A DNA stretch of 63,074 bases, filler included, from Octopus bimaculoides (GCF_001194135.2; 7 parts of 6 records of this genome joined end to end with filler, not necessarily neighbours in it), one strand, 5' to 3'. Shown: positions 13,597 through 55,138, counted from the first letter of the whole stretch. Notes: a model not told the origin generated them from the letters alone. Numbers and translations: made by a program.

Positions 13597-13876
13597 ATAT
13601 TTAGATAAAGATAGTTATTGCTAGTTCATAGGGTTACCCAGGAGTTTGTGTCCATAAAGCGACTGGCTTTACATACATCTCTTCAGACCCTAATGGCAGT
13701 GGCCTATACCCTCTCTTTGAAATAGAGGAAGAACAGGCCTTATGGCTAGTTTTTGAACACACAAAGAAGATCAAATGCAAGGGATTGTCTATGAAACAAC
13801 CATGAGCAGTAAGATATTTAGATAAAGATAGTTATGAGACAGCCATAATTATCTTTATCTAAATATTCTACTGCTC
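13597..13876 (-). mobile_element. Retrozyme-like / Penelope pLTR-like element: 217-bp unit with 22-bp terminal direct repeat, 33-bp fold-back and degenerate HHR
   Basis: ATATTTAGATAAAGATAGTTAT at 13597-13618 and 13814-13835; hairpin arms 13804-13836 and 13844-13876; HHR-like motif 13629-13692. Confidence 0.6.
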
Positions 13877-13939
13877 CATAACTTAGAGTGAGCTTTTCTT
13901 TCGGATTTATGATTTACTGACAATATGTATGTATGTATG

Positions 13940-14157
13940 TCTTTGTGTATGTGCTTGTCCCCCACCACCACTTGATAACCACTGTTGGTGTGTTTACATC
14001 CCCATAACTTAGTGGTTTGTCAAAAGAGACTGATAGAATAACTACGTGGCTTTACAAAAAATAAGTACTGGTGGGTGAGGGGCATAAGTTTGATTAAAAT
14101 TCTTCAAGGCAGTGCATGGCTACAGTCTAATGACTGGAACAAGTAAAATATAAAAGG
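13940..14157 (+). mobile_element. SINE family A 3' half, CpG-decayed
   Basis: Same tail motifs as the 48141 copy, with CG changed to TG/CA. Confidence 0.78.
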
Positions 14158-14373
14158 TAATCAGCACAAGATCAAACTTTAACTGTCAACCCAACCCAAA
14201 GTTTAATTTTGCACACCACCCACATGCCAATTTTTAGCTTATAACTTAGAGCTTACCGTCAAACTTTTAGTAAAAACAAAATTTAATACTCCATAAATAT
14301 ATATTGAATGATTTCTTAGTTAATGTTTTTATTTATGTATAGATATGTATTTATCAAGCATACATTTATACAG

Positions 14374-14450
14374 AGTCAAGACTATTGAAAAGGTTGCAAG
14401 ACGCAACGAAAATTTTAGGAAAATAAAAATAATAAGTGGAAATTTTAACG
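14374..14450 (+). CDS. Candidate exon (coding VKTIEKVARRNENFRKIKIISGNFN, or a non-coding first exon)
   Basis: Acceptor TTTATACAG|A, consensus donor ACG|GTGAGT, 77 bp, one open frame, local CpG retention. No homology recognised. Confidence 0.35.
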
Positions 14451-15254
14451 GTGAGTGTGTTAAATTTTAAGGCACGATAAGAAAATGACTCTCCCCAGAC
14501 ACAACAGAATATGCTTCAACACACGAAATCACATAAAAAAATCTTGCAAACCAAATCCCAAAACGAAATACATTTATATAGATATGTGTGTAAGTGTCTG
14601 TTAAAAAGCTCATCTTATATCTTAAGCTAAATCTCAAGTGTTGTACTTTAAATTTGAATTTCTTTCTTTATTGTTTAGAGATAGTAGCACGCAATTTATT
14701 TCATGTTTTAAATGTATTCACTGAATAGTGTATTCCAACTGAATATTAGTATAAGAATTAATGTAGACTCATTTGTGTGTTTACATATTTATTCAATCAC
14801 ATATACACACAGAGATTCAAATGACATAAGAAATGTAAAATATAAGATTATAGTGATAATATTTAAAATAACTGATTATTTTAATGTTTAAAATAACAGT
14901 GATTATACAATTAAAACTGATAAAAATTATATTTAAAATAATTGTGATAAAAGTAATAATAATGAAAATGTTCTATTTTACATGAAGCTTCAGTTATTGT
15001 CATTCTTTAGACCAGATGAGCTCAGGTTGATCAGACTATGATCTCAGGCATTCGTTTTATCCATGGCCATACCATCTTTATTTCAGTGTATCTAGGACTG
15101 CATTCTCTAACTTGTTCAGTTACAAGATGGTAGGGTGTCATTTGAGGGAAATTTGCTTGTTATTTCTAGTGGGTTAAGACACTACACAGATGCCTTGTTT
15201 TATTGGTTTGAAAAGCTTTGATATATGATGCATAGGAAAGAGAAGTACACTGTC

Positions 15255-15335
15255 ATAGATTTAGAGAGGTAATACCAAACTTGGAAGCAGAACCTAGAAT
15301 TGAGAGGCTTCAGTGTAAACTTGAAAGAAAATCCT
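15255..15335 (+). mobile_element. Tiny RTE LINE RT remnant
   Basis: Translates QTWKQNLELRGFSVNLKE, matching QV.KQGLESKGLRVNLAK of the RTE copy at about 17800-17860. Confidence 0.55.
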
Positions 15336-51500: not shown

Positions 51501-52620
51501 AGATTAACCTACATTACGGCACCCGATTGTCGCCGATTTATATACTGGCCGTATATAAAATTTCAAAGCGAGAAGTAATATCAAAACAGAATCAGGTCGG
51601 TTTTCTCTCAAAGTTTAAAGCTCATTTATTCGGGCTGACCACAAAGGATGTCCATCTGATAGTCGGTGATTACTGCCAATGTATGATGGTGAGGCGAGTT
51701 TTAATACCAGAAAAGAATCTGCCTGCCTCTGTGTATGTGTGTGTGTGTGTGTGTTCCTCTCTCTCTCTCTCTTCCCCAGAGGTTTTTGCCCTAAGTTGTG
51801 ACCCACCAACGAGTATCACTTCTTATATCGTTCTTGTATTGAAGTCGGATGTATAGATGCGTGTTTGTGTGTGGGTGGGTGGGGAAGCTGCATGCTGATT
51901 TTTCGAATCAGAAAGACAATTGTCAGTGAGCTTTCATGTCTTGATAACCCGGTTTTTTTTTTAATCCATTCTTTGTTCGTGTTCAAACCAGGGAAGATTT
52001 CTATTTACTTTCTCTTTCATGTTACAGAACTTCACTTTCTCTAATTCTGACACATCTTTCCAATTTGTCTTAAGTGACTCATCATAAGTATATAAAGTAG
52101 TAGTAGTAGTAGTAGTAGTAGTAGTAGTAGTAGTAGTAGTAGTAGTAGTAGTAGTAATCGTTGTTGTTGTTTCACCCGAATTACAGACTGACCCAGTAGA
52201 CGAATAATCAAAGCCGTTTTCACCGCGATGATCCCCATTCGTTAGTCCGACATGGTGTATCCAGGACCAACATTATCAGATGTGTCAGTCCCTCATTTTT
52301 AAGACAGTAGAGAGTGATACCAATAGTAATTTGTATTCTGCACTTCAACACACGTGAACCAAAAAAGCAGCACAGAAGTGTTATTTGCAAAAGCGTGTTT
52401 AGCGGTTTTTGAGAAGGCAGAGTATGAATTCGAGGGAGTTTGCTGTTAATTGAAGATTTAGCCAATAGGATTTCAGTTCCTGTAGTTTCAATTTCACAAA
52501 TTTTTGTATTTAACATCTTTTCCTTCTCGTTAATGACCTTGGACACTCACTATTCGAAATATTGGATCTCTTAGATATAACTCGTGTGCCTCCGGTTGTG
52601 AAACACTCCTACAGATCATC

Positions 52621-52830
52621 ACCTTCAATTACACTACACAAGCGCCATCTTAATTATATCAAAATAGCGCCGTTTTAATTACCGCAAATAGGCACAATTT
52701 TAATTACACTAAGCGAACGCTGTTTTAATTAAACCGAAAAGGCATCGTTTTAATTAAACTAAAAAGCAGGTGACATTTTAATTATACCAAAAAGATGTCG
52801 AATAATTATACGAAATATGCGCCATATTGA
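52621..52830. repeat. Degenerate 25-bp tandem repeat with invariant TAATTA core
   Basis: TAATTA at 52651, 52676, 52701, 52726, 52751, 52779, 52803. Confidence 0.85.
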
Positions 52831-54185
52831 TGCATTTGTATTAATATGACTTAAATAACACTTCGCAAATTTGGCGTAAGGCTAGGAATTTGGGGATAAG
52901 TTTCCAGTCGTTGTAACTGGCCCCGGTATTTCACTGGTACATATTCTATTATCTCTAGATAAAGGGGCTGACGTGTCTTAATTTGGACAGCATGAGATCT
53001 CACAACGAGAATGTATCTAACTGAATACTACAGTCATTTCAAGCACTGCAGTCACTGGTTCAATAACTTCCCTGCTCATAATATTCGATATAACAATAAT
53101 TGCTGCTTCTCTTGTTGTAGAAGAGCTTAAGTTCCATCCTGATCGAGCAGACTTATGATCAAAGGTTTTTCAGCTGTAGATACATTCAGCTACATCCGTA
53201 GTGTCTTAAAAAAAAAAAAAAGGAAGGATAGGAAACTTGGAATTCAAGTTCACGTTCGTAGCTAATATTTCCTGTATGTCAAGCGACCGTGACGTTATAA
53301 AGACTTGCTCTTTCACTCAACTTTTCCATGCAGTCTGAACATAGATTCGGTTCATTTCTATCGCCATCACACGTTTTCAGTACTGACCAACGTTTCATTT
53401 GAATAGTTATAGGTTACTCAGAATAAGCTTTCCTTTTTCTACTTTGTTGCTGTTAATGAAATCATCGTCATTGGATCTGCAGCAGCATTCAATACAAGTT
53501 CATTTTAGAAGAAACACACACATTCACGTACACACACACACGCGCACACACCACACAAACACACACATACACGTAGATATATACATGCTCACGTGCATAC
53601 GTACATATACAGATACTCACAGAAATATATATACGTGGCTATACCTATACACACACATATACACGTGTACATACAGCACACACACACACACACATATATA
53701 TATATGCATGTATGTATGTGTGTGTATGTATATGTATGTACGTATGTATGTGTGTGTATATATATATATATTATATATGTATGTATGCATATATAGATGT
53801 ATATATCTACCTACCTATCTATCTACCTCTCTCTCTCTCTCTCTCTCTCTCTCTCTCTCTCTCTCTCNNNNNNNNNNNNNNNNNNNNNNNNNNNNNNNNN
53901 NNNNNNNNNNNNNNNNNNNNNNNNNNNNNNNNNNNNNNNNNNNNNNNNNNNNNNNNNNNNNNNNNNNNNNNNNNNNNNNNNNNNNNNNNNNNNNNNNNNN
54001 NNNNNNNNNNNNNNNNNNNNNNNNNNNNNNNNNNNNNNNNNNNNNNNNNNNNNNNNNNNNNNNNNNNNNNNNNNNNNNNNNNNNNNNNNNNNNNNNNNNN
54101 NNNNNNNNNNNNNNNNNNNNNNNNNNNTTTTAAATATATATATGTACATTTACGCAAACGAACAATTGTACATGAAATAATGTTA

Positions 54186-54800
54186 TTAGGTTGTTCCAAA
54201 AATAATGGCTGCTCTAAGTATTGTGTTTTGAAACGCAATTTTATCATAGCATTTTAATTATATTTTAGATAAATTTCGACATACTTAATAATTGATGTAT
54301 GCTCTTTAAAATAATTTTCTTCTTATTTCAGACAGAAAACATTCTTGAAGCATAGGCGCCCTTAATTATGAGCATGACAAAAAAGACCTTCGATTACTTG
54401 CATGAGTTCAAGCTTGGACACAATGCCTCCCAAACCGCTGCCAATATGAATAGTGCATGGAGAGAGGGGTCCACAAGTGATCGCGCAGTACGAAGGCCAT
54501 ACGAGGCTTTACCACATCCTCCATATTCTCCTTATCTTTCACCCACTGATCACCATTATTTAAAGCATTTAAACACATTTTAAAGCGATAAAACTTTCAG
54601 GTCCAAACCAGAGATGGAATCAGCTTTCAAAGATTTCTTAGCATCAAATCAACGAGGCATAAATAATCTCGTTGATCGATGGCAGAGATGATTAGAAGTT
54701 CACGGCTCATACTTTGACTAATCAAAACAGTTCTACTGTTAATTTTTTCCAGAATAAAATTATGTTTATGAAATCAGCCATTATTTTCGGAACAACTTAG
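54186..54800 (+). mobile_element. 615-bp internally deleted DD34D mariner with both TIRs
   Basis: 26-bp TIRs TTAGGTTGTTCCAAAAATAATGGCTG and (reverse complement) CTAAGTTGTTCCGAAAATAATGGCTG; TA on both flanks. N-terminal HEFKLGHNASQTA fused to LPHPPYSPYLSPTD..., ends GSYFD*. Confidence 0.93.
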
Positions 54801-54930
54801 TATGTGTGTATGTATGTATGTATGTATGTATGTATGTATGTATGTATGTATGCATGCATGTTTGCATGTATGTATATATGCATGTAAATATGGATGCATG
54901 CATGTATGTACGTGTGTATGTAGTTATAAA

Positions 54931-55138
54931 AAATTAAAATGACAAGGGAATAAGAAATTATGTTATGAGTTTCATTACCTTACAGCTGTTTCAGTTATAA
55001 CTTCACGTTTGAAGCTCCGATGAAGCTATAAGGTGATACATAAAGATTCAACTACGAGTGCATTGCATCTATAGCAGAAACAGCTTTAAGCTAATGAAGT
55101 TCGTGACATAATATCTTATTCCTTTGTCATTTTAATTT
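54931..55138. mobile_element. Inverted-repeat Penelope pLTR-like element with degenerate HHR
   Basis: 62-bp arms 54931-54992 and 55077-55138 (about 80% identical). AGCT-CCGATGA-A-GCTATA..TATAGC-A-GAAAC-AGCT-TTA-AGCT at 55013-55092. Confidence 0.6.

What the first reader, a model, noticed from the sequence alone, without database searches (positions are those of the whole stretch)
13597..55138. Recurrent hammerhead-plus-fold-back architecture in four unrelated short non-coding elements
Seen: four loci with no mutual sequence similarity outside the catalytic core (13629-13692 minus, 18664-18733 plus, 19310-19371 minus, 55013-55092 plus) all show the order stem I - CUGANGA - stem II - GAAAC - tiny near-palindromic stem III - NUH - stem I, and all lie inside an inverted duplication. 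Half motifs also occur at 26603, 42047 and 44865. Established: minimal type-I HHRs with palindromic stem III occur in Penelope-like pseudo-LTRs and in metazoan retrozymes, and Penelope insertions often carry inverted LTR pieces. Inference: this genome hosts a diverse population of short ribozyme-bearing retroelements mobilised by Penelope-like RTs (a decayed one lies at 32200-33676). I do not know of a description of these families in octopus.
Basis: partly seen in the sequence, partly recalled or inferred. Interest (0 to 1): 0.8.

Follow-up and report, generated by a model that had tools for sequence, protein, structure and literature searches.

The report
Ribozyme-bearing stumps of Penelope retroelements
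The four hairpin-shaped bits carry real but mostly decayed hammerhead-ribozyme motifs and are most likely the short, folded-back 3' ends of several Penelope-like jumping genes, an arrangement already described in other animals, rather than a new class of small ribozyme elements.

Summary
All four loci have the stated order and sit in head-to-head inverted duplications, but only 19310-19371 has an intact core. I found a second intact hammerhead with a fold-back (44181-44395) and a decayed one at the 3' end of the RT (31438-31480). Two intact motifs against 0.005 per shuffle. Genome contigs laid on the 13.6-kb locus show a multicopy family whose majority letters restore the core, a 3'-to-5' fall in copy number, recurrent fold-backs, a tail on one arm and no 218-nt monomer. 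The RT is a Hydra-clade Penelope-like element. In metagenome contigs the same hammerhead type lies behind intact Hydra ORFs and in short folded-back copies of the same families. Best reading: 5'-truncated pseudo-LTR ends of several Penelope-like families, mostly Hydra-clade; not separate retrozymes. The anatomy is published (Arkhipova 2013, Cervera 2014, Craig 2021, which lists an octopus Hydra element with a hammerhead). Open point: 5' ends cluster at the stem I edge; this scan noted that before in shark and fish DNA. Cleavage was not shown.

The parts
13629..13692 (-). Locus A hammerhead, decayed in this copy (no G12, stem III not palindromic); 6-bp stem I
   Evidence: family majority letters restore G12 and an odd-length palindrome
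13597..13767 (-). Locus A body: 5'-truncated family copy ending about 38 nt after the cleavage site, without tail
   Evidence: depth gradient and loose ends
13804..13836 (-). Locus A second, very short direct piece (3' end plus about 12 nt of tail): partial tandem
13844..13900 (+). Locus A inverted arm: 3' end plus tail with CTC...GAG hairpin at 13873
   Evidence: matches the loose-end consensus before 13598 in 17 and 18 contigs
18333..18499 (-). Locus B inverted arm, hammerhead plus tail (about 108 nt after cleavage site), ending in (TA)n
18622..18663 (.). Locus B palindromic hinge; the 122-N gap before it is probably spurious (2-nt overlap of the contig ends)
   Evidence: inference
18664..18764 (+). 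Locus B direct arm, hammerhead 18664-18733 (A at G12, GUU site, stem III ACTC-G-GAGT), no tail, ends in (TA)n
19310..19371 (-). Locus C hammerhead, intact core, stem III ACCGGT, GUC site
19372..19416 (+). Locus C inverted arm (43 of 45 identical), runs into a gap; fold centre 3.5 nt from the core
31352..33680 (-). Decayed, 5'-truncated Hydra-clade Penelope-like element between two (TA)n tracts, interrupted by simple repeats
32350..33600 (-). Its broken RT-linker-GIY-YIG frame (FDIVDFYPSI, DDGL, CxCX5C, CxxC before E); many stops and frameshifts
   Evidence: no Pfam hit on the three frames
31438..31480 (-). Locus G: decayed hammerhead of that element (CCGAAGA ... GAAACTCAGAGTA) followed by tail hairpin
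   Evidence: covariance model from metagenome loci E = 0.003
41960..42227 (.). Locus F: head-to-head pair; minus arm carries only the 3' half of a hammerhead (42067-42056, stem III ACACGTGT, GUA)
44181..44301 (-).
44314..44395 (.). Locus E fold-back, 40 of 41 identical, centre 60 nt 5' of the core
44770..44881 (-). Locus H: 3' half of a Hydra-type hammerhead (GAAACTCTGAGTA) plus tail hairpin; no 5' core, no inversion found
   Evidence: (E = 0.05)
54927..55005 (-). Locus D inverted arm: starts inside the core, stem II shortened, intact GAAACAGCTGTA
55010..55167 (+). Locus D direct arm: hammerhead 55013-55092 (core at 55017-55023 and 55077-55088, two core changes), then a tail-like extension 55143-55167 (by eye)

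Best explanation
These loci are most likely dead, 5'-truncated 3' ends (pseudo-LTRs) of several endonuclease-bearing Penelope-like retroelement families, with A, B, G and H likely of the Hydra clade, each carrying its family's minimal type-I hammerhead motif and a head-to-head inverted copy that was probably made during insertion.
For: Two intact motifs against 0.005 by chance. Family A: 612 and 499 contigs laid from two DNA-type runs; depth falls from about 5000-6000 at the 3' end to 2400-3100, 1600-2100, about 700 and 105; majority letters at 13643 (63%, 73%) and 13644 (73%, 90%) and loose ends reading GTTTC at 13643-13647 restore GAAAC and an ACCC-T-GGGT palindrome; the tail lies on one arm. 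The RT in the window has the Hydra linker CxCX5C, (TA)n on both sides and its own hammerhead on the same strand. Hydra-clade hammerheads in PMC8557442 File S2 have odd palindromes such as ACTC-N-GAGT and often GUU; the octopus one starts CTGAAGAGATG like A and B. Metagenome scan: 121 loci; among those with 700 nt or more upstream, a same-strand RT match lies upstream in 11 of 22 structured against 1 of 29 unstructured loci; intact ORFs of 721 and 731 aa have RWK, DKT and CxCX5C; one cluster of 85 loci holds ORF-bearing, short and folded-back copies. A CTC...GAG tail hairpin occurs in 26 of 58 of them (control 1 of 32) and in A, B, G, H (window background 46 of 1288 tiles); (TA)n ends fall at 38-55 nt (10) or 109-130 nt (8) of 19, as in B's arms (about 41 and 108). 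Head-to-head palindromes, tails and opposite-strand hammerhead pairs are described in PMC3846280, PMC8557442 and PMC4209133.
Against: No ORF is joined to A-F or H, and the whole genome was not available, so the parent elements were not seen; family A could be followed only to about 13767. Only family A was laid on reads; B's two arms both lack G12 and its family consensus is unknown. The covariance model finds G and H but only an 11-nt piece of B (E above 2) and not A, C, D or E; a profile of the 3' region finds nothing significant (best E 0.15). C, E and F show no tail hairpin by the same test and their clade is open; D's is by eye only. The relaxed descriptor is not enriched. No Rfam hammerhead and no Pfam hit on the RT frames.
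Confidence: 0.8

Rival explanations
1. Some families are independent non-autonomous elements (non-LTR retrozymes or ORF-less mini-PLEs) of about 100-250 nt that are transcribed, self-cleave, circularise and are copied in trans by PLE proteins; this is the first reader's reading.
For: Locus A has a 22-nt direct repeat 218 nt apart around its hammerhead, which looks like one monomer. Many A-family copies share one 5' edge (13694-13697). Retrozymes are reported to derive from pLTRs (bioRxiv 10.64898/2026.07.22.740005). No ORF is attached to A-F.
Against: The stretch that would close the monomer (13780-13805) has depth 105-174 in X2, where the contig of this locus alone has 42.5, against about 5000 at the 3' end. 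No tandem array of a hammerhead unit at A-C. In metagenome loci direct repeats touch 3 of 67 structured hammerheads, and short copies belong to ORF-bearing families.
Confidence: 0.12
2. The hairpins are MITE-like or fold-back DNA elements, or assembly artefacts next to gaps, and the hammerhead words are incidental.
For: B and C abut N gaps; long inverted arms resemble MITEs; A and D fail the descriptors.
Against: Arms differ (B 89%, C 43/45, D 65/78) with transitions at CpG (5 of 8 in B), so they are old duplications and not read artefacts; a zero-mismatch contig spans A's hairpin centre (record 17, 13569-13871) and a second organism has the same locus; arms are unequal in length and copy number falls one way only.
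Confidence: 0.04
3. The hammerhead-like order is chance in AT-rich repeat DNA.
For: CUGANGA alone is only slightly enriched (31 against 21.4); relaxed hits 9 against 5.8; no Rfam hit.
Against: 0 of 1000 shuffles give two full motifs; family A's majority letters move towards the hammerhead consensus at the positions where this copy departs from it; G sits where the clade's hammerhead is known to sit.
Confidence: 0.03

Closest known systems
Hydra clade of C-terminal EN+ Penelope-like elements, including Hydra-1_Obim (Craig et al. 2021, PMC8557442)
   Same: CxCX5C linker, CxxC before the conserved E, (TA)n targets, hammerhead near the 3' end with odd-length palindromic stem III and frequent GUU; 5'-truncated inverted copy (Penelope-13_HM has hammerheads on both strands); tail at one end.
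   Different: The window's RT and the A, B, D, G, H hammerheads differ in sequence from Hydra-1_Obim (by eye against File S2 and the protein passage), so they are other families; C, E and F could not be placed in a clade; E's 87-nt stem II region is much longer than any Hydra-clade row of the File S2 table.
Minimal type-I hammerheads of metazoan PLEs (Cervera and de la Pena 2014, PMC4209133)
   Same: Long stem II, short stem I, palindromic stem III, many unrelated families per genome, mostly solo and ascribed to truncated PLEs, with pairs 100-700 bp apart on opposite strands.
   Different: No cephalopod in the two parts of four that I read; breakpoints are not mapped there.
Inverted pLTRs with palindromic junctions in Adineta Penelope elements (Arkhipova et al. 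2013, PMC3846280)
   Same: Head-to-head inversions, palindrome at the junction, optional tail on one inverted pLTR, solo pLTRs; self-priming proposed.
   Different: Predates the hammerhead finding, so the junction is not related to the ribozyme; mostly long, ORF-bearing copies.
Non-LTR retrozymes of animals (Cervera and de la Pena 2020, PMC7229834; bioRxiv 10.64898/2026.07.22.740005)
   Same: Type-I hammerhead, no protein, small size, low GC, linked to PLEs.
   Different: Retrozymes are head-to-tail tandem repeats expressed as circles; here the copies are head-to-head, 5'-truncated and not tandem.

Membership tests
EN+ Penelope-like element | RT plus C-terminal GIY-YIG ORF upstream of the pLTR | tested here: met
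   Locus G only: broken frame aligns with intact metagenome ORFs through RT, linker and nuclease (tblastn E to 1e-26); no Pfam hit
EN+ Penelope-like element | ORF linked to families A-F and H | tested here: inconclusive
   No ORF in these copies; no genome held; family A traced only to about 13767
EN+ Penelope-like element | 5'-truncation gradient | tested here: met
   Family A depth profile in two runs; metagenome families.
EN+ Penelope-like element | Adjacent inverted 5'-truncated copy, head to head | tested here: met
   A-F; further A-family fold-backs
EN+ Penelope-like element | Tail on one end only | tested here: met
   A and B; D by eye; C hidden by a gap; not seen for E
Hydra clade | CxCX5C linker and CxxC before the conserved E | tested here: met
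   CNCRNPTTC and CQLCFCE in the window RT
Hydra clade | RWK and DKT motifs | tested here: inconclusive
   The window copy starts just before RT motif A; both motifs are in its metagenome matches L030, L054, L079
Hydra clade | (TA)n target | tested here: met
   B and G on both sides, A short TA run; not clear for C, D, E
Hydra clade | Phylogenetic placement of the RT | not tested
   No tree built; placement rests on motifs and tblastn
Minimal type-I hammerhead | Intact CUGANGA, GAAA and NUH in the copy | tested here: inconclusive
   Met for C and E; not met for A, B, D, G as single copies; met for family A majority letters
Minimal type-I hammerhead | Palindromic stem III | tested here: met
   B, C, D left arm, E, F, G, H; A at family level
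Minimal type-I hammerhead | Stem covariation | tested here: inconclusive
   10 of 15 pairs change on both sides in 45 metagenome Hydra-type copies, 0 of 500 shuffles, but rows were chosen for pairing and are not the window's families
Minimal type-I hammerhead | Self-cleavage (as dimer) | not testable with these tools
   Needs an in vitro assay; no pile-up of RNA ends among 109 reads laid at A
Non-LTR retrozyme | Head-to-tail tandem monomers with a hammerhead in each | tested here: not met
   Family A; no array at A-C; D-H not examined beyond self-BLAST
Non-LTR retrozyme | Circular RNA | tested here: inconclusive
   One poly-sample RNA run, 6% read, no back-joint listed at A; no RNase R library
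MITE | Symmetrical fixed ends with target duplication | tested here: not met
   Unequal arms and one-way truncation; target duplications were not searched for

The most novel reading that the evidence does not exclude
The hammerhead fold sets the 5' end of most short PLE insertions: the RNA starts, or the RT stops, at the outer edge of stem I and not at the cleavage site, so that PLEs mass-produce a fixed 100-170 nt 'strong-stop' cDNA (stem I edge to one of two internal start sites) which folds back and inserts as a hairpin. That would give the PLE hammerhead a structural role that needs no cleavage.
Probability: 0.35. Interest if true: 0.55.

Novelty: new member of a known kind. Interest (0 to 1): 0.28.

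Why it matters
As annotation: these hairpins would be misfiled as MITEs or miRNA precursors (Rfam offers only miRNA-like hairpins); they are PLE ends, at a density of about eight in 53.5 kb of called sequence, from at least seven families. As biology: what the hammerhead does for PLEs is open (cleavage was dispensable in vitro and not seen in RNA-seq in PMC11167929). If 5' ends really pile up at the stem I edge across families and phyla, thousands of dead copies become a read-out of where the RNA starts or the RT stops, and the question can be tested with the existing in vitro system.

Tried and rejected
Whole-genome scan: no genome held. Rfam: no hammerhead at A-D or in the listed window matches. 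Pfam on the three RT frames: 0 families. Relaxed descriptor: no overall enrichment. A 218-nt retrozyme monomer at A: rejected by depth. Drop in depth and joints at 13637-13642 as a sign of cDNAs ending at the cleavage site (13635): rejected, since this copy's mismatch cluster at 13643-13649 stops alignments there. The 69-nt skip 13697-13767 as an intron: ends are not GT-AG on either strand. Expression: no RNA holder listed; 109 of 12.9 million RNA reads laid, most on the neighbouring repeat, none at 99% likeness or more, no start or end pile-up; X14 is only guessed to be RNA; none of this counts for or against expression. Profile of the 3' region on the window: best E 0.15. Viral-contig scans for C- and D-type motifs: 46 loci, 2 marginally structured, no RT match. 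5' half motifs at 26603, 40501, 444, 762: no partner half found, near chance. Pairwise protein comparison with L030 failed on coordinates and was not repeated, as one search covers it. Literature searches that found no description of these particular families or of a stem I boundary: (open-access library only; supplements of the bioRxiv preprint and of PMC4209133, and 57 of 59 supplement parts of PMC8557442 other than term look-ups, were not read and may bear on the octopus claim).
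Full report
Setting. The window is AT-rich animal DNA (36% GC in called bases, 9541 N in many gaps), full of simple repeats and SINE-like repeats. No whole genome is held. I call the four loci A (13629-13692 minus), B (18664-18733 plus), C (19310-19371 minus) and D (55013-55092 plus).

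1. The observation. The order of parts is present at all four places. Only C passes a strict descriptor. A has no G12 and a non-palindromic stem III; B has A at G12 in both arms; D has CCGAUGA and G16.2>U, while its inverted arm keeps GAAACAGCUGUA. With one core mismatch allowed and stem II up to 65 nt, 9 hits appear against a shuffle mean of 5.8; C (score 12, shuffle mean 0.055 at that level) and B (11, 0.235) lead, and A and D are absent. These descriptors were set after I had seen the loci. CUGANGA alone is barely enriched, so 26603 is unconfirmed. Rfam gives no hammerhead. Of 8 local inverted repeats with 50 bits or more, 6 adjoin such a motif: A, B, C, D, E and F (41960-42227). All are head to head. 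Arms differ by transitions, many at CpG in B, so they are old genomic duplications. Fold centres lie about 4 (C), 10 (D, by my indexing of the TTCA/TGAA hinge), 30 (B), 60 (E) and 154 (A) nt 5' of the core.

2. The RT. The minus-strand frames at 32350-33600 hold FDIVDFYPSI, DDGL, a CNCRNPTTC linker and CQLCFCE, with many stops and frameshifts; Pfam finds nothing. The linker and the CxxC match the definition of the Hydra clade (PMC8557442 section 11). About 750 nt behind the frame, on the same strand, lies a decayed hammerhead G (31438-31480), then (TA)n; the 5' end is also at (TA)n. So the RT is not an outside helper: it carries the same kind of end. File S2 of that paper lists Hydra-clade hammerheads with odd palindromes (ACTC-N-GAGT, ACTT-T-AAGT), often GUU, one element with hammerheads on both strands through an inverted copy, and an octopus element, Hydra-1_oBim, whose motif starts CTGAAGAGATG like A and B but differs elsewhere.

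3. Family A on reads (the one lay allowed, likeness 80). 612 contigs of X2, 499 of X16 (a second organism, which also has this locus: 15 differences over 330 nt), 41 of X14 and 109 RNA reads of X23 were laid; many belong to a neighbouring repeat at 13520-13597. On the element, X2 depth falls from 4800-6200 (13598-13636) to 2400-3100, 1600-2100 (to 13701), about 700 (to 13766) and 105 (13793-13805; the contig of this locus alone has 42.5). Depth of collapsed contigs is no copy number, but the gradient is the same in both organisms. Majority letters at 13643 and 13644 and loose ends reading GTTTC over 13643-13647 (20 contigs in X16, 11 RNA reads) give the family GAAAC and a stem III ACCC-T-GGGT; 40 of 88 difference rows were shown, and none of them lies in the 6-bp stem I. 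The loose end before 13598 (17 and 18 contigs) matches the reference's own inverted arm, so that arm carries the tail and the direct arm lacks it. The apparent 218-nt monomer is not a recurring unit. Four of the 5 opposite-strand joints that lie within the hammerhead arm use 13696 or 13697, 11 nt 5' of the core at the outer edge of stem I (two more involve the reference's inverted arm and are ambiguous); 10 of the 24 pieces shown end at 13694-13697 (1162 not shown; the list favours long pieces and joints). Subfamily divergence upstream could mimic this edge. No RNA start or end pile-up was listed.

4. The same end elsewhere. 67 have stems I and II by my threshold; a same-strand match to the window's RT lies upstream in 13 (two on one contig), in 11 of 22 structured against 1 of 29 unstructured loci with 700 nt or more upstream. 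Two intact ORFs show RWK, DKT and CxCX5C. One cluster of 85 loci holds ORF-bearing copies, short copies and fold-backs, seven of them centred within 25 nt of the core out of 15 inverted matches listed for distinct contigs. After dropping 5 duplicates, 64 loci had a close long partner and 45 were not contig ends; their 5' boundaries fall at 0-15 nt (9), 16-30 (2), 31-60 (6), 61-120 (8), 121-250 (10) and beyond (10); 9 of 17 within 60 nt against 26% expected, P about 0.017, post hoc. Stems covary in 45 rows chosen for pairing. A model built from them finds G (E 0.003) and H (E 0.05), only a stem III piece of B, and not A, C, D or E. A CTC...GAG hairpin 38-56 nt behind the cleavage site occurs in 26 of 58 loci (control 1 of 32) and in A's inverted arm, B's left arm, G and H; (TA)n ends fall into a class at 38-55 nt and one at 109-130 nt, as B's two arms do. 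A profile of this region did not reach significance on the window.

5. Mechanism. Shown: hammerhead motifs, head-to-head arms, one-sided tails, truncation gradient, decay. From literature: a PLE protein nicks and extends both strands at AT-rich DNA and starts inside the RNA at two sites that bound the tail; hammerhead cleavage was not needed in vitro and no RNA-seq ends were seen at the site (PMC11167929); head-to-head palindromes were ascribed to self-priming (PMC3846280); such hammerheads are thought to cleave as dimers and do so slowly (PMC4209133, PMC6765202); transcripts start in the upstream pLTR. Inferred: each locus is one insertion of short cDNAs from a parent PLE RNA, joined head to head by fold-back or by twin priming. 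Inferred and weaker: the stem I edge is a preferred stop or the RNA start.

6. Comparison and novelty. Inverted truncated copies, tails and (TA)n targets are in PMC8557442; opposite-strand hammerhead pairs 100-700 bp apart and solo motifs from truncated PLEs in PMC4209133. Retrozymes are head-to-tail tandem units (PMC7229834; bioRxiv 10.64898/2026.07.22.740005), which is not met here. The families themselves were not found in what I read, hence 'new member of a known kind'. The stem I boundary was not found in searches, but this scan noted it before in shark and fish DNA (AI notes, not independent support; I had seen the pattern before that look-up).

Papers seen: PMC8557442 passages, section 11, supplement term look-ups and parts 2 and 52 of 59; PMC4209133 parts 1-2 of 4; the bioRxiv preprint part 1 of 5 and passages; PMC7229834, PMC11167929, PMC3846280, PMC8969392, PMC6765202 passages only. 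Hammerhead numbering (C3, G12, H17) and the terms twin priming and strong-stop are from my own knowledge.

Verdict: real, mostly dead PLE ends; known anatomy; interest 0.28. The 5' boundary at stem I is the part worth a genome-wide test.

Noticed in passing
window 44181-44301 (-): Intact-core hammerhead with an 87-nt stem II region that folds into a long hairpin, and a 10-nt stem III palindrome; arms of its fold-back are 40 of 41 identical, so the family may be young. Best candidate for a cleavage assay.
   Followed up: partly
window 44547-44577 (+): 5' half motif CTGACGA with a 7-bp stem II and GAAA, then an A-rich run; no stem III or 3' stem I. Faces away from locus E.
   Followed up: no
window 58928-59038 (-): Further copy of the 3' end of family F (87%), without hammerhead.
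   Followed up: partly
window 13395-13594: Very high-depth repeat with a sharp end near 13594, into whose TA-rich end locus A is inserted; second copy at 23361-23477. Its terminus recalls Helentron-associated elements (from memory, untested).
   Followed up: no
window 19055-19309 (-): About 250 nt of AT-rich sequence between C's cleavage site and the next (TA)n, much longer than the Hydra-type 3' ends; C's true 3' end is unknown.
   Followed up: no
window 46626-47261 (-): Mariner-like transposase remnant (weak DDE_3 and Transposase_1 hits below cut-off).
   Followed up: partly
window 37300-38829 (+): Non-LTR retrotransposon remnant with a zinc knuckle and a restriction-like nuclease pattern (weak zf-RVT; family by recollection only).
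   Followed up: no
window 35202-35543 (-): Frame with three C2H2 zinc-finger-like repeats next to a gap.
   Followed up: no
window, many places (e.g. 21075-21414, 24629-25153, 48138-48547, 13923-14156, 18819-19038; 57764-57858, 62744-62881, 29015-29217): Two dispersed SINE-like repeat families with about ten copies each.
   Followed up: no
window 6084-6218: 139-nt imperfect inverted repeat (73%) with no hammerhead motif; 40188-40427 is a second short inverted pair.
   Followed up: no
L107 and L002: Inverted duplications centred 3' of the hammerhead (about +50 and +216), that is tail to tail, the rarer orientation.
   Followed up: no
L001-L121, 45-110 nt behind the cleavage site: Conserved GCTCT...TTGAGCACTT hairpin in the tail of Hydra-clade elements from several hosts; a candidate protein-binding or RT-start signal.
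   Followed up: partly
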